Origin: an uncultured archaeon
GTDB taxonomy: Archaea > Asgardarchaeota > Thorarchaeia > Thorarchaeales > Thorarchaeaceae
Length of the DNA stretch: 64,000 nucleotides
Assembly (NCBI GenBank): GCA_964610875.1
Contig: CAZSWP010000005.1
Coordinates: 1-64,000 of the forward strand
Reading direction: 5' to 3'
The notes under the pieces were generated by a model, which searched no databases, had not been told where the DNA came from, and saw nothing but the letters and a program-made list of their open reading frames with translations. Below, one piece after another: positions 3,647 to 30,765 of the stretch. The position numbers and the translations under genes were made by a program. Each line of letters opens with the position of its first letter. Position 1 is the first letter of the stretch.

Positions 3647-6256
3647 CTAATCCCTCCTTAGATAATTGTTCCCAATCGTTACAAGAAGACTATTCCCGTG
3701 ATGTTCGTATGACACAAGATAAATCAACCCAGGATCATTTGGACTCCGGAGATAGACTCGAGTAGCTTTTGGAAATACCCGCCCAATTTTGCGTATCCGC
3801 GCATTCATGAGATATTCCAAGAAATCAACACTAATGTTTACACTTACCTCAGATGCTTGTTTAGCTCCCTCTAATCTGAGGACCCCTAATTTCTCATTAA
3901 ATACGGTTTCAATTTTTGATTTCTCATCTTCCATTTGCGATAGCTGAGATTCAAAAATCTCCTTCAATTGGAGGTAATCCCGTGTTTCAGCATCTCTCTG
4001 TGGTTTTGGTGGATAACCTTTCTCTTCTTTTACAGGATATTGTTCCATAATCTTCAGTCTTCGGTCTTCAAGAGATTCAGGTTTCTTTGGCTCTGGAATA
4101 GAAACTGGCTCACTATCAGACATCATTTCCTTAATTCTTTTTGTGAAGTTCTCAAGTTCAGTTTCATATTCCTTCATGTCTGCTTCATATGCATCCTTTG
4201 ATTTTTGAAGTAGTTCTGCTCGTCTATCATTGTGCTGTTTAATAGGAACATTTTCTTCATCAACTAGTTTACATTCTGCCTCCCAAATCTTCACAGATTC
4301 TTGGTATTTTTCTTCACGAACTTTGTATGCAGTCCGAATTCTATTAACCATAGCTTGTGCCGTTGCACCTTGACCTAACCTATCATAGGCACGTTTCAGA
4401 ATAATAAGTAAATTCTCACCCAAAGAAGAATTAGTTTCTGTATGCTCTCTAAAATCAGCCAGCCAACTTTTTGCTTCAATTAACCACTCCTCTGGTTTTT
4501 CCGTCTGTAACTCTATCAAATTATTAAGACCTTCTAGGAAGGGGGTTTGTCCGGTTTTTGCTTCACGTATTATTGGAATCAGGTTTTGTTTTGATAGAAT
4601 TGTTTCCCCGACATCAGGTAAGGTTTCACTAACAAAAGTTTCAAACATTCTTAGTAATTCATTTAGCTTACTTCCAGATTCATCATTGCTAGGTTCCGAG
4701 GTAACATCAAATTTACCTTTGATTTCTCTTCTTGCGGCTTCAGCCATATCATTGAATCCAATCAATGTCAAAATATCTATCTGGACGAATGCATCAGTTG
4801 TTTCTCTAGCAACTGCAGCAATCAGGTCTTCCATAGTATCATATGTAGTACCATCAAAGGAGATTCTATCTGCTATAGCATTCACTATTGAATATAGTTC
4901 TGCAAACAGTTTATGAAATATCATCGACTCTGTTGGATTTAGATCCTTACTAGTGGTCTGAACACGAAAATCCTGAAGTACATTGAGAAGGACCTTCTTA
5001 ACAGACTCGACCATCAAAAATTGCTTTAACTCATCACTAAAATAACCCATTACCCTTTTGGCAAATGTTGTGAAGTAGGAGAATATACCTCGCAATTGCC
5101 ATGCACGAATCTCTCCTTCGACAGGATATTCTCTCTGAACTGAAAGCATCAAGTGTTCAACCAGGGCTTTGGCAAAAGGAGTGCCAAGTTCTCCAGTTTC
5201 ATCTTGTCTTTGTGATATTGTTTCAATGAGGAAGGATTTGTGTTGATCAAGAGTTTTTTTCGCACCAGATTTTGCATGAGCCTCGACAATCTCCGAAAGA
5301 ACATCAACTGCAGCTGTCATTTGGTCAATAAATTCATCAATTGAAGACTGAAGATTCTCTAACTCACTAGGTTGTACAAGCTCACGCCCAATATGCTTGA
5401 CTAACACAGCTATAGTCGTGCGGGCAATATCAACCTCTTCTGTACTATAAGCATAGGAATTGAGTTCACCAAGAATTGCTTGACCCATCTCAGGTATCTG
5501 TGCTGACAATGTTGTGAGTGCTGTTGGAGAGATAATGCGTGTCATGAAGTGTTGAATCTGTGATTCCGAATCACTCATTGGTAGGCGAAACTCAATAGAC
5601 TCTCTAGAAATGATTCTTGGACCTGGAGGACTTGTTGCAAAGTCATCTCGATAACCCATCTTGATTATGGTTTCCGTATCAACATGTTCTGGTTTAATCA
5701 GGACTGAAGACCATGAACCCTGAAATTGCCTATCCAACATATCAACAAATGTTACACCATTAAAACGATCTGAGAATCTTCGCAACACAGAAACTCCTTC
5801 TGATTCGTAATCTAATTCATTTGCTAATACCGCTTCTTCAATATCAGAGAGCTTTTGTGCTACCTTATTGAGATGCTCATCAACCCTGAATGGATCTACG
5901 ACACCTTTTTCCCAACTCAGTGTACACAGATTTGATTTTACGTCTTTGAATCTACCCCCTGCGACAACGAGGTGCTCTGGTAATACCTCGGGTCCTTGAG
6001 CTCGTTCAAGGTCCCACTCCATAGAAAATAATTCTAAATTCTCATGCTCATATAGAGTATCCCGAACTGCAAATATCAGAGGAGCAATATTCATAGCGAC
6101 AGTTTCAGAGTTCTGTTCCATCATACTTCCAGAACCCGTTGCGCTACCAATTGGAAACCCATTCTTTGTTGTTGTACCCAAGACTGATACAGAGGCCATT
6201 TTGATTGCCTCAACCGTGCTAGGTGTTTGAATGTCAGAGTGTTCAGATTTAGGCAT
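3647..6256 (-). CDS. Large hypothetical protein: possible roadblock/longin-like N-terminus, helical middle, long coiled coil with Pro-rich hinges
   Basis: 869-aa ORF; LGTTTKNGFPIG near N-terminus; charged coiled coil aa ~640-790; start may be MASVSV (6199). Confidence 0.75.
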   Translation of the reverse strand: MPKSEHSDIQTPSTVEAIKMASVSVLGTTTKNGFPIGSATGSGSMMEQNSETVAMNIAPLIFAVRDTLYEHENLELFSMEWDLERAQGPEVLPEHLVVAGGRFKDVKSNLCTLSWEKGVVDPFRVDEHLNKVAQKLSDIEEAVLANELDYESEGVSVLRRFSDRFNGVTFVDMLDRQFQGSWSSVLIKPEHVDTETIIKMGYRDDFATSPPGPRIISRESIEFRLPMSDSESQIQHFMTRIISPTALTTLSAQIPEMGQAILGELNSYAYSTEEVDIARTTIAVLVKHIGRELVQPSELENLQSSIDEFIDQMTAAVDVLSEIVEAHAKSGAKKTLDQHKSFLIETISQRQDETGELGTPFAKALVEHLMLSVQREYPVEGEIRAWQLRGIFSYFTTFAKRVMGYFSDELKQFLMVESVKKVLLNVLQDFRVQTTSKDLNPTESMIFHKLFAELYSIVNAIADRISFDGTTYDTMEDLIAAVARETTDAFVQIDILTLIGFNDMAEAARREIKGKFDVTSEPSNDESGSKLNELLRMFETFVSETLPDVGETILSKQNLIPIIREAKTGQTPFLEGLNNLIELQTEKPEEWLIEAKSWLADFREHTETNSSLGENLLIILKRAYDRLGQGATAQAMVNRIRTAYKVREEKYQESVKIWEAECKLVDEENVPIKQHNDRRAELLQKSKDAYEADMKEYETELENFTKRIKEMMSDSEPVSIPEPKKPESLEDRRLKIMEQYPVKEEKGYPPKPQRDAETRDYLQLKEIFESQLSQMEDEKSKIETVFNEKLGVLRLEGAKQASEVSVNISVDFLEYLMNARIRKIGRVFPKATRVYLRSPNDPGLIYLVSYEHHGNSLLVTIGNNYLRRD

Positions 6257-6364
6257 TGAAAATCCCCATTGTGTTTGATTCTACTTCTAAATGGATAGTA
6301 GACTAAGAGAGATATAACCAATCTCATAGTCGTTTTTGAACTTACTTCGAATGTAACGGTTCTA

Positions 6365-7312
6365 TCAAACCGGTTCCCAAACCCCATCCTCAAGCTCACG
6401 GACCAAACCAGCATTAGTAAGGTCGCTTAGACAAACAAAAAGAGTTGTGGGTAGCAATGCATCAATACCAGTTGGAATAGGTATACTGCGTGCTTCTTGA
6501 ATATCAAATACAAGTTGTTGTATATCTGCATCTCCTCTTGCTGAAAGGTGATGCAATACCGTGTCTTGAAAGTGTAACATTGCATCTCTTGCTTCTTTGA
6601 ATTGTAAACCAACTTCATTTTCAAGGTAAGATATATCATGAGATGGACACAAACATTCTATGGGTAACTTTGAAATGGTATCTAACGCACCACTTCGAGA
6701 TGTAAAACTACCAGAGAGATCAACATAGAACTTTCTTGGTTCATTTGGGTAGTTATTCACCTCATCGCCAGAGAATAGGACTTTCTTTTTTCTTTCATAG
6801 AATAGACAGTGACCGGATGAATGACCTGCAGTGTGAATAACATCTATGGATATATTTCCAACTTTTATCTTATCCTGATGTTTGAAAATCCTATCGGGTT
6901 CTAATCCTCTATAGTTTACTCGTAATGGACCACGTTCCAACTTCATTGCAAATCTTTGTGCAAAATCTAATAGCAAACGCTCATTGATGAAAGATTGGGG
7001 GTCCTCAAGTAGAGATGCATCGTTCTTATGAATCATGATTGATGCACCAGTTGCTTTGCGCAAACGCCCAGCACCTCCAACATGATCAGGATGACCATGC
7101 GTACATAATATTCCAGCAACATCATTCCTTGGCTTAAACCCTAAATCTTCAATTGCTTTTACAATTTCATCTCCCGGATCACCAGCAGTACCGGGATCGA
7201 TGATGAGAAGTTCATCACCACCTATTAGCAAGTAGCTAGTTAGATATCCAAAATCTTCTACGTATTTCCCTCGAATCTGATATACGCCAGGGATAACCTC
7301 AACCGTGTTCAT
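6365..7312 (-). CDS. MBL-fold metallo-hydrolase with C-terminal wHTH-like tail
   Basis: THGHPDHVGG (HxHxDH), GHSSGH, FSGD, PSH motifs. Confidence 0.9.
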   Translation of the reverse strand: MNTVEVIPGVYQIRGKYVEDFGYLTSYLLIGGDELLIIDPGTAGDPGDEIVKAIEDLGFKPRNDVAGILCTHGHPDHVGGAGRLRKATGASIMIHKNDASLLEDPQSFINERLLLDFAQRFAMKLERGPLRVNYRGLEPDRIFKHQDKIKVGNISIDVIHTAGHSSGHCLFYERKKKVLFSGDEVNNYPNEPRKFYVDLSGSFTSRSGALDTISKLPIECLCPSHDISYLENEVGLQFKEARDAMLHFQDTVLHHLSARGDADIQQLVFDIQEARSIPIPTGIDALLPTTLFVCLSDLTNAGLVRELEDGVWEPV

Positions 7313-7393
7313 GTCAAGAAAATAACTTCCGATGAACACTTATGACCATATCGAAAAAATAGATACAAACGCGGGAAGAATAGAGTGAGGTAA

Positions 7394-8464
7394 ATGGACA
7401 TCGAAATATTGAAACAGAAGCTACTTAGGATAAGAAAAGAACTTGATTATAGAAGAGGAGTGGATCCTGTAATCACCGAAGTCGTTGAACATCCAGATGG
7501 TAGTATCCATGTAATTCTTCCTGACAGGTCAGAAAAAAGCCTCATGATGGGGCCAGGAGGAAGAATAGTTGCGACTATTGCTAAAGAGATTGAAAGACCT
7601 GTAAGCGTTTACTCTCATGACGAATTGATGATTAAAAAACACAGAATCTCGCTGATGGTGAATAGGATAGAAGAAATTGGAAATGAAGTGAGTCCAAACC
7701 AAGAGAGATTTCTTTTGTGGCTTAAACAAGTAGGTAAATCAGAAGAAAGGATACCTACAAGCCCCCGGATAATGCCAGTAAAACCGAATGGTAATATTCG
7801 AGTTTCAGTAGCATATTCAGGAGGCGTTGACAGTACAGCTAGTTTACTTCTTCTGAAATCAGGTTTTGATGATATTACTGCATATCACCTAGATATTGAA
7901 AATGATAGCACTATGCATTTGAAATTTGTTCAGAGAATCATCGAGAATCTTGGTATCGAAAGCATGCTTCTCCAACCAGAAGATGAGATGCTCAAGATTT
8001 TTAGACTAGCTGGCGAGGGAAGAGTTCATCCCTGTGGTCAATGTCATGAAAACATTCTGGTTCAAATCAGAAATAGTGCTAAGGATTCAGGGATGGATGT
8101 GCTTGTGACAGGAGAAATGCTGCCCACAGGCAGGCAATCCATAGAAATCGATGATGACCTTCTTGTCGTACATCTACCAGCAGCATTTGCCTTGTCAAAA
8201 TATGAAACTCAACAAATTGTTTCAAATGCAGGAATAGAAATACCATCAAACTCTTTTGGGTGTTCGAAACTTCAAAGTATTCAAGATGGTAGTTGGAGAA
8301 TGTTAGGGCCATCAATCTTCAGAGTGCTTCGCGAACTTCAAGCGGGAGTTTTGTCAACGGGGAAGGCATTATCGTTGTTGAAAAGTGTAATCATGCCAGT
8401 AATAGTAGATTCTCACAAAAAAGATAGAAATGAATTAGAGATGGAGGCGACAAAAGACGCATGA
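7394..8464 (+). CDS. KH-domain + PP-loop ATPase (COG1365-like)
   Basis: PDRSEKSLMMGPGG KH motif, AYSGGVDS PP-loop, HPCGQC, TGEMLPTG, FGC. Confidence 0.8.
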   Translation: MDIEILKQKLLRIRKELDYRRGVDPVITEVVEHPDGSIHVILPDRSEKSLMMGPGGRIVATIAKEIERPVSVYSHDELMIKKHRISLMVNRIEEIGNEVSPNQERFLLWLKQVGKSEERIPTSPRIMPVKPNGNIRVSVAYSGGVDSTASLLLLKSGFDDITAYHLDIENDSTMHLKFVQRIIENLGIESMLLQPEDEMLKIFRLAGEGRVHPCGQCHENILVQIRNSAKDSGMDVLVTGEMLPTGRQSIEIDDDLLVVHLPAAFALSKYETQQIVSNAGIEIPSNSFGCSKLQSIQDGSWRMLGPSIFRVLRELQAGVLSTGKALSLLKSVIMPVIVDSHKKDRNELEMEATKDA

Positions 8465-8934
8465 GAGGGGTATATTCGCTTATTATTGAAATCACTCGAG
8501 AAACGGATATTAAAATAGGATCTCTTGGGAGTATTAGATTTGGAAAGGGAATTTGGCTATATGTGGGGTCTGCACAGGGGAAGGGTTCAACTAACCTGCA
8601 AAATCGCTTGAATCGGCATTTCTCCTCAGACAAGACAGTACATTGGCACATTGACATGCTTCTGGAGAGTGAAGAGGCTCATCTAATTGATGCTCTCTGT
8701 GCAGTGACCCTCATAAATCGCGAATGTGATGTCGCATGTACTCTTGTTGATGACAGACATGCAGTTTGGGGACCTTCTGGTTTTGGGGCTTCAGACTGTA
8801 AAAGAAAATGCAATTCTCATCTATTGAAATCTAAAACATCTTTTGAAACTACTAAAAGAAATACAAGTCATTCATTCAAAAAGATAGGTTTGTCCCCACG
8901 TCTATTTGACGACCTAGAATCTATACACATGTGA
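8461..8934 (+). CDS. GIY-YIG/Uri superfamily endonuclease (DUF123/COG1833-like)
   Basis: RGVYSL...LYVGSA...RLNRH...HWHIDML...GFGASDC...SHL; ATGA overlap with upstream gene. Confidence 0.85.
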   Translation: MRGVYSLIIEITRETDIKIGSLGSIRFGKGIWLYVGSAQGKGSTNLQNRLNRHFSSDKTVHWHIDMLLESEEAHLIDALCAVTLINRECDVACTLVDDRHAVWGPSGFGASDCKRKCNSHLLKSKTSFETTKRNTSHSFKKIGLSPRLFDDLESIHM

Positions 8935-22228: not shown

Positions 22229-23014
22229 GTGATTGGATTGCGAAAGATATGCTTAACAAATGATGATGGCGCCCACAGCATTGGATTATTAAAATTGGCT
22301 GAGAAATTGAGCGAACATTATGACCTAACAGTAATAGTACCAGAAACACAGATGAGTGCTACAGGAAAGTCACTTACAATCAATCGACCCTTACGTGTCA
22401 GGGATAATAAAAATGCAGATGGTTATCGATTAATTACCCATGATGGGACCCCAGCTGACTCGGTTATTTTAGCACAAGTCTTTACCGATAAAATTGACAT
22501 TTTCATATCGGGAATAAATGCAGGAGGAAATACAGGATATCATAGTATGCTGACCAGTGGAACAGTTGGCGCAGCTTTTGAAGCTGCACTCAAAGGGTAC
22601 CCTGCTATAGCACTGTCCATGGAAGCGACCCCTGATGATTGGTTCGATCCTAACGGTAGTGCAAGTGACTATGAATATGCATGCGAATTCGCACTTGATA
22701 TAATAGATAAAATTCTAGAAAAAGGATTGCCTGATGGTATTGATGCCATCAACATGAATTTCCCCTGTAGTGTAACTAAGGACACCGAGATTATGGTTAC
22801 AAAACCCACTCGCGTCAGAATGACGAATGATGTTGAAATTAGAGTAGATCCCCATAAACGCAAGTACTATTGGTTCAAGGGAGTTGAACAAGATGGAAGA
22901 CCAGGTGAGGATGCATACTCTGTTCTGAAATTAAATAAAATATCAATATCTCCAATCGTTATAGAATCAATTGGAAGAGATGAAATTGAACTAGTAAAAT
23001 CACTCATAGAGTAG
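22229..23014 (+). CDS. surE: 5'/3'-nucleotidase SurE
   Basis: LTNDDG, GTPADSV, SGINAG.N, SGTVGAA. Confidence 0.93.
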   Translation: MIGLRKICLTNDDGAHSIGLLKLAEKLSEHYDLTVIVPETQMSATGKSLTINRPLRVRDNKNADGYRLITHDGTPADSVILAQVFTDKIDIFISGINAGGNTGYHSMLTSGTVGAAFEAALKGYPAIALSMEATPDDWFDPNGSASDYEYACEFALDIIDKILEKGLPDGIDAINMNFPCSVTKDTEIMVTKPTRVRMTNDVEIRVDPHKRKYYWFKGVEQDGRPGEDAYSVLKLNKISISPIVIESIGRDEIELVKSLIE

Positions 23015-24014
23015 ATAGTTTTTCTAGGGCAAGCCAAAGTGCATCGGTTTTCGGTCGTTCAAGAGTTTTTGTCGCACCATTATCCTTAATTTCTCTAAGA
23101 TTCTTTTCTTCTGCAATTTCTCCAATAATTGACACTTGAATTGCTTCAGCTTCGATTCTAGAAACAACATCTTCTGCATATTTTTCCTTACAAGTCATTA
23201 ACATACAACCACTACTGATTAGATTCATGTAATCAATATCTAGTAACTGACATATAGCAATGGTAGATGGATGAACAGGAATACGGGTACTGTCAACAAT
23301 ACACCCAACATCACTAGCATCACATAACTCATGTATGCCACCAGCAATTCCACCTTCAGTAGGATCATGCATTGCAGTTATATGACCTGTTTGAAATGCA
23401 ACGATACCCTCCTTTACTACACTTATCTTGTTTCGAAGAGTTATTCCGGTTTCAGTTATTTCATCTCCAAGGATATTTGTTAGTCTTTTTCTCCCTTCTG
23501 ATGCAAGAATTGCGGTTCCTTCAATAGCGGCAGATTTTGTTAGAATAAGTGCATCACCCGGATTTGCTCCAGTAGAAGTTACATATTCTCCTTCAGTAGT
23601 TTCCCCAAGCATGAAACCAGCAATGATTGGTTTGTCTATATCATCAGTGATTTCTGTGTGGCCCCCAACTACTGCAATACCAAGAGATTTTGATGCGTCA
23701 TTTATTTGTTGCATGATGCGTCCTAATTCCTCCTTAGTAGAACCAGAAGGTAGTATGATGGAATTTAGGAACCACTTTGGAGCAACTCCAAAAGTGGCTA
23801 CATCATTCGCATTCACATGCACTGATAGCCAACCTACATCTTCAACAGAACCGGTAATCGGATCAGTTGAGGCAACAAGAATTTTATCTCCGAATCTGAT
23901 AAGTGATGCATCTTGGCCTAGACCTGGACCGAGTATTAAGTCAGGATCTGATGAACCAAGTCTACTAAAAACTTCAGATAGCAGAATTTCGGGTGGAACC
24001 TTACCAGGAAGCAA
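23004..24014 (-). CDS. AIR synthase-related (PurM/HypE/ThiL-like) protein
   Basis: PGKVPP, GPGLGQDAS, STDPIT, NANDVA, GGHTE, MHDPTEGG; TTG start after GGAG; ORF-track extension to 24125 overlaps a structured RNA. Confidence 0.85.
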   Translation of the reverse strand: MLPGKVPPEILLSEVFSRLGSSDPDLILGPGLGQDASLIRFGDKILVASTDPITGSVEDVGWLSVHVNANDVATFGVAPKWFLNSIILPSGSTKEELGRIMQQINDASKSLGIAVVGGHTEITDDIDKPIIAGFMLGETTEGEYVTSTGANPGDALILTKSAAIEGTAILASEGRKRLTNILGDEITETGITLRNKISVVKEGIVAFQTGHITAMHDPTEGGIAGGIHELCDASDVGCIVDSTRIPVHPSTIAICQLLDIDYMNLISSGCMLMTCKEKYAEDVVSRIEAEAIQVSIIGEIAEEKNLREIKDNGATKTLERPKTDALWLALEKLSTL

Positions 24015-24035
24015 ACTTTCTGTCTCCAATACTCT

Positions 24036-24148
24036 GAGGGCGCACCGCCTTGTATCTGTTGCATGAAAAGTGTGTTCATCGAAAACCCATTCGGGACTCT
24101 CAACACTCACTATGACAACAGACATCTTTCAGGAACGATGCGCACCTC
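24036..24148 (-). ncRNA. Putative structured RNA or leader (long irregular hairpin with K-turn-like motif)
   Basis: Four nested helices, several G.U pairs only on minus strand; TTATTAAG upstream at 24164-24171. Confidence 0.55.
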
Positions 24149-24191: not shown

Positions 24192-25691
24192 CTAAGAAGG
24201 AATGTAAGCTTCGGCTTCTTTTAGACTCAGTGAACTCATTTTTGCTTGTGAATGAATAGAGTCAAGTATTGCATTAATCACAGATTTTTCCTTCATCAGT
24301 TCACTTGATAGAAATGCATGACCACCACTAGAACGAGCCACAATATATGCACCAAATGTTTGCCTAAACTCATGGAATGTAAGCAGGGTCTCCATTGGAT
24401 CAGAAAAGCCCTCCTTACGTGTACGTAACATTGTTGCTAGTTCTAAGGCTTCATGATAAGGTCGTTTCAGGAACTTGGGCCACCTTTTGTGGTCTGGATT
24501 CGCTGAAACTGCAGCGATACGGACATTGTTTTTCTTCAGTAATCGTGATGCTTTTACGAGGTCTCTCACTGGAGTATACTGTGCTTCACCAGGTCCTGCA
24601 GATTGTGCTAATGGTATATTAGGCGCAAAATCAGATATGACGACTACAAGTGGTTCAATATCTCTGTTCCTCATTTTTTCACGTTTGATAGTTTCTAGTG
24701 CTTTCATTAATGCATCAGCTAGAGGTGTTAGTCCCGAAATCCGAAGTCTTGCCAAAGCGCGGTATATTTTATTCCAATTTGTAGTAGGGGCTTGAACCTC
24801 AACTGCTCCACTGTCCTTAAATGCAACAATACCAACCCTATCTTTAGAACCTCTTGTTTCTCGTTCTATACGTTCTACTAGTTTTCGAACCTCATTCATA
24901 CTACCTTTCATTGATAAACTAACATCGATAACAAGAATTATGGTTAGTGGGGTACGACCTGTAAAGACACTCTCTCTTAGATCTTCGGGTTTTATTTCAA
25001 TGTGTCGACCCTCTTCAAATTTACCGCTTCGTGAAACAGCTGCCATAATTGTGGCAGGTAAGTGGATGCTACCGGGGTCAGCAGAGGGGGTTCGCCAACG
25101 TGAAGGGCGACCATGTTTCAAACTCTCTTGAGCTTTGAGAGACCCTACTGCACGACTACTCACCCTCTTCTTTGCCCATCCTCCAGATGCGACTCTGGAC
25201 CGAATCATTGCTCTAGCATGTAATTCTTCAAGGTCAAAGAGAGACTCACCAGTATCCAAATCAGGAGTCTTTACAAAGAATGAAGAGTCTAAGGCAATAG
25301 CCTCACGCAATTCGGATTTTGAACCCGAAACCTTACTCTTCTTTCCAGCTCGGTAAGGACGGGTGGCTCTTCCCCATTCATCGCCTTCTTCAGGTTCAGC
25401 TGCACTTGGTTCAACGGTATCAATTCCAGCAGCAGGCCCCTTCTGACGTTTTAACATATTTCGTAACCAATATCGAACTGTGAAATAGATGAGAGGTATG
25501 TAGATGATTGTATTAATCACAATAAGATACAATGGGGGCAATGAGAAAAATGGAACACCAGCAATTAGATTCAGTGGGCTCATGAAAAGCCATCCAAAGT
25601 AACCAAATCCTACCACTGCCATGATGGCACAAATTGTCCCCTTGATGGGATTTTCACCACGAGGATTTCTTATTTTACTCGGCGTTTTTTT
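24192..25691 (-). CDS. ChlD-like C-terminal module (2 TM + VWA/MIDAS); probably the -1 frameshift continuation of the upstream AAA+ ORF
   Basis: DVSLS MIDAS, GLTPL, ISD; IHLPATI ChlD-type motif; frame open from the A9 run (25685-25693) to 24192. Confidence 0.85.
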   Translation of the reverse strand, partial: KKTPSKIRNPRGENPIKGTICAIMAVVGFGYFGWLFMSPLNLIAGVPFFSLPPLYLIVINTIIYIPLIYFTVRYWLRNMLKRQKGPAAGIDTVEPSAAEPEEGDEWGRATRPYRAGKKSKVSGSKSELREAIALDSSFFVKTPDLDTGESLFDLEELHARAMIRSRVASGGWAKKRVSSRAVGSLKAQESLKHGRPSRWRTPSADPGSIHLPATIMAAVSRSGKFEEGRHIEIKPEDLRESVFTGRTPLTIILVIDVSLSMKGSMNEVRKLVERIERETRGSKDRVGIVAFKDSGAVEVQAPTTNWNKIYRALARLRISGLTPLADALMKALETIKREKMRNRDIEPLVVVISDFAPNIPLAQSAGPGEAQYTPVRDLVKASRLLKKNNVRIAAVSANPDHKRWPKFLKRPYHEALELATMLRTRKEGFSDPMETLLTFHEFRQTFGAYIVARSSGGHAFLSSELMKEKSVINAILDSIHSQAKMSSLSLKEAEAYIPS

Positions 25692-26863
25692 TTACCATCC
25701 TCAGAGCCCCACTGGGCCATAGCTGATTGTCTACCAAATTGTCCTCCACTCATTCTATGGCCTGACTTGTCTTTGGACTCTTCGCTCATTTCAGTTGGGG
25801 ATTTTCTTCTATCAGCTTTTTTTGCTACTTCATGAGCTTTGGATATAGCTTGATCAATCTCATCAAAGGGAGGTGGCTCTAAGAGCCCACCACGCCTTGT
25901 CCTATGACTAAGAGCAAGTTGTGCTGCAATTTTCATATCTTCAAGATCAACGACCGCTCTCTTATCAAAAGCTGCAAGTGTGATTGCTGTTTTACTAATT
26001 ATAATATCAGGACGTACTCCATCTACCTCGAGAGCATCACAAGCCATTGCAATTGCTTTGAGGTTGGTTTCAGGTAAATTGACTTCGGAGAGTAATTCCC
26101 TTGCTTTGACTATTTGTTGACGAAGGTTTTCCTGAGATTCCTTCCACTCCTCTAGGAAAGCATCAGGATCTCTTTCAAAATCTAGATTTCTACGAACTAG
26201 TTCCATTCTTTCCTCAATAGATAGATTACCACCCACCGAAACGTGAAGCGGGAATCTATCTAGTAGTTGTGGTCTGAGTTCTCCCTCTTCTGGGTTCATA
26301 GAGCCCATTAGAACAAAATCGGAAGGATGAGAAATTGATATTCCTTCACGTTCAATAACATTCACTTTTGTAGCAGCAGCATCCAATAAATCATCAACAA
26401 GATGGTCTGGTAGAAGGTTAACCTCATCGACGTAGAGAACATTCTGGTGAGCTTCAGCAAGGATACCAGGTTTCAACGCTTGAATACCTTCTTTAAGAAT
26501 ACGTTCAATATCAATTGATCCTATTAGACGATCTTCAGTTGTTGATAAAGGGAGATTGATTACTCTCATTTTCCTTTTCTTTCGTGGAAGTGTACCTTCA
26601 TTTTCTAATCTTCCTCTACAATTAGAGCAGAGTGCATCTTTCCTATCAGGATTACAACCGAATCTGCACTCTTCGACAATATCCACCTCTGGAAGAAGAT
26701 CAGCAAGCCCACGAACAATAGTAGTTTTGCCAGTTCCTTTTGGTCCTGCTACTAAAACACCGCCAATACGAGGATTCACTCCATTAAGAATAAGAGCGAG
26801 TTTAAGTCGCTCCAATCCTACTAAAGATGTGAATGGTAACACTACTCTCTTTAGATGTTCCAA
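25670..26863 (-). CDS. Magnesium chelatase ChlI-type AAA+ ATPase
   Basis: PFTSLVG, GGVLVAGPKGTGKT, TEDRLIGS, LYVDEVNLL, EREGISISHP, NPEEGELRPQLLDRF. Confidence 0.93.
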   Translation of the reverse strand: MEHLKRVVLPFTSLVGLERLKLALILNGVNPRIGGVLVAGPKGTGKTTIVRGLADLLPEVDIVEECRFGCNPDRKDALCSNCRGRLENEGTLPRKKRKMRVINLPLSTTEDRLIGSIDIERILKEGIQALKPGILAEAHQNVLYVDEVNLLPDHLVDDLLDAAATKVNVIEREGISISHPSDFVLMGSMNPEEGELRPQLLDRFPLHVSVGGNLSIEERMELVRRNLDFERDPDAFLEEWKESQENLRQQIVKARELLSEVNLPETNLKAIAMACDALEVDGVRPDIIISKTAITLAAFDKRAVVDLEDMKIAAQLALSHRTRRGGLLEPPPFDEIDQAISKAHEVAKKADRRKSPTEMSEESKDKSGHRMSGGQFGRQSAMAQWGSEDGKKKRRVK

Positions 26864-30028: not shown

Positions 30029-30688
30029 TTAACTCTGTGCTTCTTTCTCACGCTCTTCTTTTGCCTCTCGTTCTAAATCAGCTAGCAAGTCATCAATACG
30101 CTTCTCATCAGATTCTTTTTCTTTCTCGGCGGTCTTTTCACCTTCGGTTCCCAGTGGTGGAAGGACACCTTCCTTCTCCAAAAGGATTTCGGCTTCCATT
30201 GCATCAAGTTGTCGTTCAATTCTCTCCTCGGATTCAATGGACGCTTCTGAACCTGAAAGATCTTCAGAAAGAAGCTCGCCTGCTATTGATATCTGTTCAA
30301 ACGATTCAGATAGTTTATCTAACTGGGTTTGAATCTCACCAGGGCTCAATATCTTCCGTGCTGCAGTTAGTGCATCATTAGCGATACTGAAGGCTCTGAG
30401 AACCTCAGCTTGATCTTTTGCTTCTTCAATATTCAGCAAAGCTGTTTCCAAAGTCAAAAACTGCTGCTGATATCTACCTCGTCTGTTCTGAAGGTCCACA
30501 ACGATGCTTAGATGCTGTCTTGCAATAGACCTATCCCCTCGAGCCATAGCTTCTTTTGCAATCTTTTGCTCTTCCGTCATCCTAGTTTCTAGTCTGCGAA
30601 TCCTCAGAGTCATAGCGTTCATTGTGCCTTTTATTTCAAGGATTCCACGTTCAGCATCCACTTTCTTTTTTCCGCTTAGAAAACCCAT
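30029..30688 (-). CDS. Snf7-family ESCRT-III protein (Vps20/32/60 group)
   Basis: MGFLSGKKK..., helical hairpin with GDRSIARQHL, LETALLNIE, acidic tail with VLPPL and IDDLLADLE. Confidence 0.85.
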   Translation of the reverse strand: MGFLSGKKKVDAERGILEIKGTMNAMTLRIRRLETRMTEEQKIAKEAMARGDRSIARQHLSIVVDLQNRRGRYQQQFLTLETALLNIEEAKDQAEVLRAFSIANDALTAARKILSPGEIQTQLDKLSESFEQISIAGELLSEDLSGSEASIESEERIERQLDAMEAEILLEKEGVLPPLGTEGEKTAEKEKESDEKRIDDLLADLEREAKEEREKEAQS

Positions 30689-30765
30689 GATAGTGCACCA
30701 AAACCTGCGCATTCATGAGAACTTCGGAATCTATGTATTTAAAGAATTGTGAGAAGGGGGATACT

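What the first reader, a model, noticed from the sequence alone, without database searches (positions are those of the whole stretch)
24192..26863. Probable programmed -1 frameshift making soluble and membrane-anchored forms of a ChlI/ChlD AAA+ machine
Seen: the ChlI-type ORF ends GGT AAA AAA AAA CGC CGA GTA AAA TAA (A9 at 25685-25693). The -1 frame has a stop right at the start of the run, then opens exactly on it (KKTPSKIRNPRGENPIKGTICAIMAVV...) and runs through to the VWA domain. A -1 slip gives a ~890-aa AAA+-linker-TM-TM-VWA protein; no slip gives a 397-aa AAA+. Small hairpins follow the run (tccc-atcaa-gggga, tgcc-atcat-ggca). Established: some prokaryotic chlD genes make both chelatase ATPase subunits from one gene by frameshifting on poly-A. 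Unusual here: an Asgard-like host, a two-TM hairpin between AAA+ and VWA (ChlD is normally soluble), and no ChlH/CobN gene in the window. Inference: a membrane-tethered AAA+/VWA remodeller whose subunit ratio is set by slippage.
Basis: partly seen in the sequence, partly recalled or inferred. Interest (0 to 1): 0.8.

Follow-up and report, generated by a model that had tools for sequence, protein, structure and literature searches.

The report
Poly-A slippage site in membrane-anchored chlD-like gene
A run of nine A's lets one gene of a Thorarchaeota (Asgard) archaeon make a short soluble ATPase and, after a one-base slip, a long membrane-anchored ATPase-plus-VWA protein. The site is real and kept across the whole archaeal family, but this recoding trick is already published for chlD-type genes.

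Summary
On the minus strand a ChlI-type AAA+ frame (26863-25670, 397 aa) ends 12 nt after an A9 run (25693-25685). The -1 frame opens on that run and continues through two hydrophobic helices into a ChlD-type VWA domain, giving an 890-aa fusion.

In 46 genomes of the same family with a readable junction:
- 40 keep the -1 split with an A9-A11 run.
- 5 are in-frame because the run is one base longer.
- 1 has an extra deletion.

The 17 codons before the downstream ATG evolve as coding sequence in the -1 frame (64% synonymous differences against 9% and 4.5% in the other frames). No usable start codon lies upstream of them. No RNA structure is conserved after the run.

Best reading: one recoded chlD-like gene makes two products by slippage on poly-A. 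RNA-polymerase slippage is somewhat more likely than ribosomal -1 frameshifting.

This belongs to the published fs-chlD recoding class (PMC3711429, PMC9227772). This scan has already reported it on other Asgard genomes (e1-5445304, e1-5455056).

What differs is the membrane hairpin between the domains and the absence of any CobN/ChlH gene in 41 family genomes. Function remains inferred: a membrane-tethered AAA+/VWA remodeller.

The parts
25670..26863 (-). 0-frame ORF: short product, ChlI-type AAA+ ATPase of 397 aa. The TTG start has GAGG 8-11 nt upstream.
   Evidence: TIGR02030 BchI-ChlI 375 bits; PDB ChlI 8osf/6l8d/1g8p E about 1e-92 over aa 5-331.
26723..26746 (-). Walker A motif (GPKGTGKT). 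Walker B LYVDE lies at 26423-26437. The sensor-1/Arg-finger block lies at 26252-26305.
   Evidence: these columns are invariant in alignment A2.
26618..26668 (-). Four-cysteine insertion (C-x3-C-x8-C-x2-C) in the AAA+ domain, invariant in the clade.
25685..25870 (-). Low-complexity linker after the AAA+ core (aa 332-393 of ORF1). It is predicted disordered in the orthologue model.
25685..25693 (-). A9 slippery run, read as T9 on the + strand: the recoding site.
   Evidence: Among 47 aligned orthologous junctions the run is A9 in 31, A10 in 10, A11 in 5 and A7 in 1.
25692..25694 (-). TAA in the -1 frame. It closes that frame just before the run, so the shift cannot occur upstream of it.
25670..25672 (-). 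0-frame TAA stop, four codons after the run. It overlaps the ATA (Ile) codon of the -1 frame.
25623..25685 (-). -1-frame junction peptide (TPSKIRNPRGENPIKGTICAI). It has no ATG/GTG/TTG start and is conserved as protein.
   Evidence: codon-position entropy 0.53/0.26/1.40; 64% of codon differences are synonymous.
25620..25622 (-). Conserved ATG (42 of 47). It is an internal Met of the fusion and a possible extra start for a 476-aa TM-VWA product.
25572..25637 (-). Hydrophobic helix 1 (TM1) of the hairpin.
   Evidence: Kyte-Doolittle 19-aa window, 1.86; helix 396-425 in the orthologue model.
25476..25541 (-). Hydrophobic helix 2 (TM2). Basic residues flank the outer ends of both helices and the loop between them is uncharged.
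   Evidence: the charge pattern is read from the sequence.
24486..24941 (-). VWA / integrin-I domain with an intact MIDAS site: DxSxS at 24912-24926, Thr within 24720-24737, Asp within 24624-24641.
   Evidence: VWA_2 52 bits; the best PDB match is BchD 2x31_A (E 1e-5); MIDAS residues are invariant in A2.
24192..25691 (-). Whole -1-frame open stretch (499 codons plus stop), forming the C-terminal part of the 890-aa long product.
   Evidence: TIGR02442 profile positions 399-614, continuing ORF1's match to positions 2-355.

Best explanation
The two ORFs are one chlD-type gene recoded at a poly-A run. Standard reading ends four codons after the run and gives a soluble 397-aa ChlI-like AAA+ ATPase. 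In a fraction of events the reading register moves by one base on the A9 run. This happens either because RNA polymerase adds an A to the transcript (my preferred mechanism, about 55:45) or because the ribosome slips -1 on A_AAA_AAA. Translation then continues into a linker, a two-helix membrane hairpin and a ChlD-type VWA/MIDAS domain, giving an 890-aa membrane-anchored form. By analogy with ChlI/ChlD and CobS/CobT, the short and long forms probably assemble into a mixed AAA+ ring complex at the cytoplasmic face of the membrane. The VWA domain would then hold a client. No ChlH/CobN exists in the genome, so the client is not a classical tetrapyrrole chelatase subunit. Shown here: the site, its conservation, translation of the junction in the -1 frame, and the domain make-up. 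Inferred: the two products, their assembly and the function.
For: Gene identity: ORF1 and ORF2 match consecutive parts of one profile, TIGR02442 positions 2-355 and 399-614. ORF1 is ChlI-like (PDB E about 1e-92; fold TM 0.84-0.92). ORF2's VWA is closest to BchD.

Conservation: of 46 family genomes with a readable junction, 40 keep the -1 offset with an A9-A11 run inside the frame overlap. The overlap is as small as 10 nt, which is the run itself, in L014. AAA makes up only 58% of Lys codons genome-wide, yet the run is uninterrupted in all but one genome.

Translation of the junction: the 17 codons before the ATG show third-position wobble in the -1 frame. The only candidate start there is ATA or GTA in 36 of 47 sequences.

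Fused forms: five genomes and one metagenome contig are in-frame fusions, and they give the junction predicted for the -1 shift (five by one extra A in the run; L053 by one extra base, a G followed by A10). They are scattered over four genera.

Need for both products: more distant relatives are in-frame AAA+-TM-VWA proteins. A Bathyarchaeota relative has a separate chlI-like gene directly upstream of its in-frame TM-chlD. The own genome has no second ChlI gene.

Precedent: poly-A runs of 7, 9 and 11 in fs Mg-chelatase genes gave 10, 40 and 63% shifted product in E. coli (PMC3711429).

For transcriptional slippage in particular: no conserved downstream structure; runs of 9 or more where 7 would do for the ribosome; in-frame variants keep both the run and the out-of-frame stop; and L033 needs the opposite shift direction.
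Against: There are no RNA or protein data: no junction peptide, no transcript with A10, and no raw reads, only low-depth contigs. A conserved ATG follows the junction peptide and could also start a separate TM-VWA product. Seven of 47 orthologues have a GTG overlapping the ORF1 stop, which would allow coupled re-initiation in those genomes. Some in-frame relatives (G035, Thermoprotei, a Promethearchaeota contig) show no short ChlI form at all, so the need for a short form is not universal. Neither slippage by archaeal RNA polymerase nor frameshifting by archaeal ribosomes has been measured for this family.
Confidence: 0.85

Rival explanations
1. The shift is purely ribosomal: a classical -1 programmed frameshift on A_AAA_AAA, with tandem tRNA-Lys slippage and no contribution from RNA polymerase. 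This is a sub-variant of the best explanation, not an alternative to recoding.
For: Every run holds an A_AAA_AAA or A_AAA_AAG heptamer in phase. L003 has lost the A9 but keeps a perfect heptamer directly before the stop. The published chelatase cases are described as A_AAA_AAR frameshifting (PMC5009743).
Against: No conserved downstream stimulator was found: RNAalifold gave 0 pairs on 47 sequences, and the single-sequence fold had z = -0.62. The run is kept at 9-11 A although 7 would suffice. L033 would need a +1 shift. In E. coli, efficiency rose with run length (PMC3711429), as expected for polymerase slippage.
Confidence: 0.3
2. There are two separate genes. ORF2 is started on its own, at ATG 25622 or by termination-reinitiation at the Ile/Val codon that overlaps the ORF1 stop. 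The A run is only a Lys-Lys-Lys tract.
For: ATG is conserved in 42 of 47 sequences. The ORF1 stop overlaps the I/V codon (ATAA, GTAA or GTGA). In L018 and L019 the ORF1 stop overlaps the ATG as TAATG. Database annotations-534-aa VWA proteins. PMC3711429 saw some downstream initiation beside frameshifting in some of its tested constructs.
Against: The 16 codons upstream of the ATG are under protein-level selection in the -1 frame. The I/V codon is a canonical start in only 7 of 47 sequences. No Shine-Dalgarno-like sequence lies at a working distance; this is read from the alignment. The uninterrupted A run is kept despite 42% AAG usage. Natural in-frame fusions and in-frame distant relatives exist. 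The -1 frame is open across the run in every genome.
Confidence: 0.07
3. This is a DNA-level contingency locus. Replication slippage switches the run between A9 and A10 in the population, turning the fusion on and off, and there is no slippage in RNA or on the ribosome.
For: Six independent in-frame variants sit among split relatives, five of them one A longer than their nearest split relative, in four genera and one metagenome. Poly-A is also slippery for DNA polymerase (PMC3711429).
Against: 87% of genomes (40 of 46) sit in the same out-of-frame register, which is not what free switching would give. The 0-frame stop four codons after the run is conserved. The contigs laid show one length only, though at low depth. 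This can coexist with the best explanation.
Confidence: 0.1
4. The split is an assembly or sequencing homopolymer error, or the gene is a decaying pseudogene.
For: Homopolymers are error-prone. This is a metagenome-assembled genome with about 3x contig depth at the locus.
Against: The same register is found in 40 independently assembled genomes of 15 genera. Both halves are under purifying selection, with 55-78% amino-acid identity and no internal stops. MIDAS and Walker motifs are intact.
Confidence: 0.02

Closest known systems
Frameshifted chlD genes (fs-chlD; the 'magnesium chelatase' recoding cluster): Antonov et al. 2013 (PMC3711429), Atkins et al. 2016 (PMC5009743), Kuznetsov et al. 2022 (PMC9227772)
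   Same: A ChlI-type AAA+ frame and a VWA frame overlap at a -1 offset on a conserved poly-A run (A7-A11 in the published set). The short product corresponds to the small subunit and the shifted product to the medium subunit. In-frame fused homologues exist. The set includes archaeal members (Methanocaldococcus, Methanococcus) and orphans without a large subunit (Spirochaeta thermophila, Brevefilum fermentans).
   Different: Here a two-helix membrane hairpin lies between the AAA+ and VWA domains, so the shift also decides between a soluble and a membrane-anchored form. The host is an Asgard (Thorarchaeota) family. No CobN/ChlH was found in 41 family genomes. NCBIfam equivalog cut-offs are not reached.
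Thermus thermophilus dnaX (tau/gamma made by transcriptional slippage on A9), as cited in PMC3711429
   Same: An A9 run in a gene for an AAA+ protein. Polymerase slippage gives a full-length and a truncated AAA+ subunit that assemble into one complex. No RNA stimulator is needed.
   Different: In Thermus dnaX the in-frame product is the long one and slippage truncates it. Here the register is reversed in most genomes. The family and function are different.
ChlI/ChlD (BchI/BchD) and CobS/CobT motor of class I chelatases (PDB 8osf, 6l8d, 1g8p, 2x31)
   Same: The AAA+ fold and sequence match (E about 1e-92; TM 0.84-0.92). The ChlD-specific pre-VWA element and the MIDAS-bearing VWA domain are present. 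A short plus a long AAA+ subunit are expected to form a two-tier ring.
   Different: No ChlH/CobN partner is present, a membrane hairpin is present, and both AAA+ modules are the same active sequence.
MoxR-type AAA+/VWA chaperone pairs (NorQ/NorD, PMC9976466; also RavA/ViaA, CbbQ/CbbO, CoxD/CoxE from my own knowledge)
   Same: This is a working analogy. An AAA+ ring and a VWA/MIDAS adaptor act on a client protein, often for metal-centre insertion, and some of those clients are membrane complexes.
   Different: The AAA+ here belongs to the ChlI clade, not MoxR (the bpMoxR hit of 21.7 bits is below its cut-off of 27). No client gene is evident in the neighbourhood.

Membership tests
fs-chlD recoding class | An N-terminal ChlI-type AAA+ frame and a C-terminal VWA frame that together cover one ChlD-type protein. 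| tested here: met
   (TIGR02442 positions 2-355 and 399-614).
fs-chlD recoding class | Overlapping frames at a -1 offset with a conserved A-rich slippery site (A_AAA_AAR or poly-A) in the overlap. | tested here: met
   40 of 46 genomes; runs of A9-A11.
fs-chlD recoding class | Homologues in which the two parts are fused in frame. | tested here: met
fs-chlD recoding class | Both products actually made (reporter or protein evidence). | not testable with these tools
   No RNA run holds the locus. Only the E. coli reporter data for other members exist (PMC3711429).
Class I Mg/Co chelatase medium subunit (ChlD/BchD/CobT), as a functional chelatase | A large subunit ChlH/BchH/CobN is encoded in the genome. 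| tested here: not met
   PF02514 gave 0 hits in the own genome (95% complete) and 0 of 41 family genomes. The control genomes gave hits.
Class I Mg/Co chelatase medium subunit (ChlD/BchD/CobT), as a functional chelatase | Score above the curated equivalog cut-offs (TIGR02031 BchD-ChlD, TIGR02442). | tested here: not met
   237.5 bits against a cut-off of 499.55; 452.8 + 105.6 bits against 779.45.
Class I Mg/Co chelatase medium subunit (ChlD/BchD/CobT), as a functional chelatase | A C-terminal integrin-I/VWA domain with a complete MIDAS site. | tested here: met
   DxSxS, Thr and Asp are invariant.
Class I Mg/Co chelatase medium subunit (ChlD/BchD/CobT), as a functional chelatase | A soluble protein with only a Pro/acid-rich linker between the AAA+ and VWA domains. 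| tested here: not met
   two hydrophobic helices lie between the domains. An acidic stretch follows them.
ChlI/BchI small subunit (for the short product) | An AAA+ domain of the ChlI clade with Walker A/B, sensor and Arg-finger motifs. | tested here: met
   TIGR02030 scored 375 bits, below its equivalog cut-off of 466.95, so this is family-level membership only.
MoxR AAA+/VWA chaperone systems | An AAA+ domain of the MoxR clade. | tested here: not met
   bpMoxR 21.7 bits against a cut-off of 27. The best matches are all ChlI.

The most novel reading that the evidence does not exclude
The slip ratio at the A run sets how many protomers of a mixed ChlI/ChlD-type AAA+ assembly are tethered to the membrane. 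This defines an archaeal, chelatase-independent, membrane-anchored AAA+/VWA remodeller that acts on a membrane or envelope client. It would also be the first recoded cellular gene shown in Asgard archaea, possibly by RNA-polymerase slippage, which has not been demonstrated for an archaeal cellular gene as far as I know.
Probability: 0.3. Interest if true: 0.6.

Novelty: new variant of a known kind. Interest (0 to 1): 0.4.

Why it matters
First, annotation. In about 70 Thorarchaeota genomes these are filed as two unrelated genes ('AAA family ATPase' and 'VWA domain-containing protein'), although they are one recoded gene.

Second, biology. The case extends the published chlD recoding device to Asgard archaea and to a subfamily in which the shift switches the same ATPase between a free and a membrane-tethered state.

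Third, function. A whole archaeal clade of ChlI-TM-VWA proteins (Thorarchaeota, other Asgard archaea, Bathyarchaeota, Thermoprotei) lacks any large chelatase subunit. This supports the view that the ChlI/ChlD motor has roles outside tetrapyrrole metalation.

It is not a new mechanism, and this scan has already met it on sister genomes.

Tried and rejected
- RNA evidence: the look-up of sequencing runs listed no RNA holder, so nothing can be said about expression or about A10 transcripts.
- Read support: only Logan contigs were available. One contig bridges the run with A9. A second ends 12 nt past it and was not counted. Depth is about 3x, and the samples may be the ones the genome was assembled from.
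- Downstream stimulator: RNAalifold on 47 junctions gave no pair, and the window's own fold is not better than shuffles (z = -0.62).
- Start at the I/V codon: rejected as the general mechanism (ATA or GTA in 36 of 47).
- A run as an archaeal TATA box for an internal promoter: considered, and judged unlikely because no A-to-T change is seen in 47 sequences. This is inference only.
- Gene neighbourhood as a clue to function: the flanking genes are housekeeping (thrC, Na/Ca exchanger, SurE, epimerase). The AIR-synthase-like gene downstream is syntenic within the family, but it is not adjacent in the three distant relatives whose neighbourhoods were listed, so no partner could be named.
- Other A9 sites in the genome (C26, C74): these are plain intergenic runs or adjacent unrelated genes.
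- The Antonov 2020 MBE paper is not held. Its content is cited only through PMC9227772.
- A literature search for membrane-anchored ChlD found nothing relevant.
Full report
OBSERVATION. The genes lie on the minus strand. The 0 frame (26863-25670, 397 aa) ends GGT AAA AAA AAA CGC CGA GTA AAA TAA, with A9 at 25693-25685. The -1 frame carries TAA at 25694-25692 and is then open to 24195. It begins KKTPSKIRNPRGENPIKGTICAIM and has no ATG, GTG or TTG before ATG 25622. A -1 shift on the run gives an 890-aa protein.

WHAT THE TWO FRAMES ENCODE. ORF1 is a ChlI-type AAA+ ATPase:
- TIGR02030 scores 375 bits.
- PDB ChlI/BchI chains match with E about 1e-92 over aa 5-331.
- The orthologue model superposes on ChlI with TM 0.84-0.92.
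- Walker A/B, sensor and Arg-finger motifs are intact.

ORF2 holds a VWA domain with a complete MIDAS site. Its best solved relative is BchD. The two frames match consecutive parts of a single profile, TIGR02442 'putative cobaltochelatase': positions 2-355 and then 399-614. Together they therefore correspond to one ChlD-type protein. The last 65 residues of ORF1 are a low-complexity linker, not a domain.

COMPARATIVE TEST OF THE SLIP SITE. The organism is a Thorarchaeota (Asgard) MAG from a microbial mat. ORF2 was sought in 87 genomes of the order, and 72 have it. In 46 genomes the junction can be read:
- 40 are split at the same -1 offset with an uninterrupted A9-A11 run inside the frame overlap.
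- One of those 40 (L003) has the A9 broken by a G, but it carries A7 as a perfect A_AAA_AAA directly before the stop.
- 5 are in frame.
- 1 (L033) has a one-base deletion just upstream of the run and would need the opposite shift.

The overlap of the two frames is as short as 10 nt in L014 and consists of the run, which pins the shift to it. Among 47 aligned junctions the run is A9 in 31, A10 in 10, A11 in 5 and A7 in 1. Runs of 9 or more A/T are rare in this genome (34 against about 86 expected). AAA makes up only 58% of Lys codons. The run is therefore kept as nucleotides, not merely as Lys-Lys-Lys.

THE JUNCTION IS TRANSLATED IN THE -1 FRAME. In most genomes the 17 codons that end at the ATG lie after the ORF1 stop and before any canonical start. 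Across 47 distinct sequences, codon-position entropy is 0.53/0.26/1.40. In the -1 frame 64% of pairwise codon differences are synonymous, against 9% and 4.5% in the other two frames. The only conceivable start there is the Ile/Val codon that overlaps the ORF1 stop. That codon is ATA in 21, GTA in 15, GTG in 7, ATT in 2, GTC in 1 and GTT in 1. Independent initiation therefore cannot be the general route into this peptide; the peptide has to be reached from ORF1.

IN-FRAME VARIANTS. L020, L044, L051, L052, L053 and a JGI metagenome contig (P0002/L027) are in-frame fusions of 880-913 aa.
- Five of the six have one more A than their nearest split relatives; L053 has one extra base instead, reading G followed by A10.
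- Their junctions match the peptide predicted for the -1 shift, for example GKKKTSKVRNPRG in L020.
- They lie in four genera whose other members are split, so they are independent recent events.
- They keep the run, and they keep the stop in the other frame, so a slip there would give the short form.

This pattern fits a run at which both registers are read in every cell. It also shows that the fusion protein is viable. Some or all of these variants could be consensus noise or DNA-level phase variation; the tools available cannot tell these apart.

MECHANISM. No structure is conserved downstream. RNAalifold finds no pair in 47 sequences, and the window's own fold has z = -0.62. The published chelatase cases gave 10, 40 and 63% shifted product in E. 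coli for A7, A9 and A11 (PMC3711429), and they are described as A_AAA_AAR sites under purifying selection (PMC5009743). Four observations lean towards RNA-polymerase slippage:
- the run is kept at 9 or more A;
- there is no stimulator;
- the in-frame variants tolerate the other register;
- L033 needs the opposite direction.

Ribosomal -1 slippage on A_AAA_AAA is not excluded, and the two may add up. I put recoding as such at 0.85.

MEMBRANE HAIRPIN AND WIDER FAMILY. Hydropathy finds two hydrophobic segments directly after the junction peptide. The AlphaFold model of the in-frame orthologue L020 (mean pLDDT 74.5) has this layout:
- a confident AAA+ domain, residues 1-342;
- a disordered linker;
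- two long helices, 396-425 and 435-461;
- a second disordered stretch;
- a confident VWA domain with a helical C-terminal extension.

Basic residues flank the outer ends of the hairpin and the connecting loop is uncharged. By the positive-inside rule both globular domains should therefore face the cytoplasm; this is an inference from the sequence. An exhaustive search shows that the nearest relatives are in-frame AAA+-TM-VWA proteins of 735-880 aa. They form about 20 clusters at 50% identity and come from Thorarchaeota and other Asgard archaea, Bathyarchaeota and Thermoprotei. The hairpin thus marks an archaeal clade, whereas the split at a poly-A run is specific to this Thorarchaeota family; distant relatives have no long run at the junction. 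In a complete Bathyarchaeota genome a separate chlI-like gene sits directly upstream of the in-frame TM-chlD. This parallels the chlI plus chlD arrangement and supports the need for a short and a long subunit. The window's genome has no second ChlI gene. Other in-frame relatives show no short form, so this need is not universal.

FUNCTION. CobN/ChlH (PF02514) is not found in the own genome (95% complete) or in any of 41 family genomes, while the control genomes gave hits. The protein therefore fails a defining test for a working class I chelatase. It also scores below the NCBIfam equivalog cut-offs. Neighbouring genes give no client. An AIR-synthase-like gene downstream is syntenic within the family only. 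The most likely role, by analogy with ChlID, CobST and MoxR/VWA pairs such as NorQD (PMC9976466), is an ATP-driven remodeller. Its VWA/MIDAS domain would hold a client at the membrane. This is inference.

COMPARISON AND NOVELTY. The recoding belongs to the published fs-chlD class (PMC3711429, PMC5009743, PMC9227772). That class already includes archaeal members and orphans without a large subunit. This scan has already reported the same device on another Thorarchaeota genome, with the membrane hairpin (e1-5445304), and on another Asgard genome with an in-frame A11 (e1-5455056). I read those notes after forming my view and they agree with it. Relative to the literature, two things are new: the Asgard host, and the fact that the shift toggles one ATPase between a soluble and a membrane-anchored form. 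A literature search found no description of a membrane-anchored ChlD. I class it as a new variant of a known kind, of moderate interest.

LIMITS. There are no RNA or protein data and no raw reads. TM segments come from hydropathy and a model, not from a dedicated predictor. Genomes of one family are not independent samples.

Noticed in passing
window 26618-26668 (-): A four-cysteine insertion (C-x3-C-x8-C-x2-C) between Walker A and Walker B of the AAA+ domain. It is invariant in all 24 aligned clade members and may be a zinc or redox site.
   Followed up: partly
window 23004-24125 (-): An AIR-synthase-related (PurM/HypE/ThiL-like) gene 66 nt downstream on the same strand. It is below all NCBIfam equivalog cut-offs and is syntenic in the family loci, but it is not adjacent in the distant relatives whose neighbourhoods were listed.
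   Followed up: partly
L033 (G076:C75), about 3-6 nt upstream of its A9 run: A one-base deletion relative to its relatives puts ORF1 in a different register at the run, so the fusion would need a +1 shift or the loss of one A. It may be a real variant or an assembly error.
   Followed up: partly
L003 (G023:C37), junction: The A9 is interrupted (AAAAAGAAA). A second run, A7, lies directly before the stop as a perfect A_AAA_AAA heptamer. L007 has both the A9 and this A7.
   Followed up: partly
L054:4901-5965 and 6001-8616 (Bathyarchaeota, CP070659.1): A separate 354-aa chlI-like gene lies 35 nt upstream of an in-frame 871-aa AAA+-TM-VWA gene. This is the two-gene counterpart of the recoded single gene.
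   Followed up: partly
cluster of P0022 (JGI metagenomes): An 803-aa in-frame relative whose 90% cluster also holds a 300-aa 'ChlI' member and a 535-aa 'ChlD' member on one 92-kb contig. This may be another split or recoded copy in a different lineage.
   Followed up: no
G000:C26:30787-30795: An A9 run lies just before the ATG of a LemA-like gene, after a gene ending in a Gly-rich tail. It is intergenic and not a frame junction.
   Followed up: yes
window 30029-30712 (-): A Snf7/ESCRT-III family gene, in keeping with an Asgard genome.
   Followed up: no
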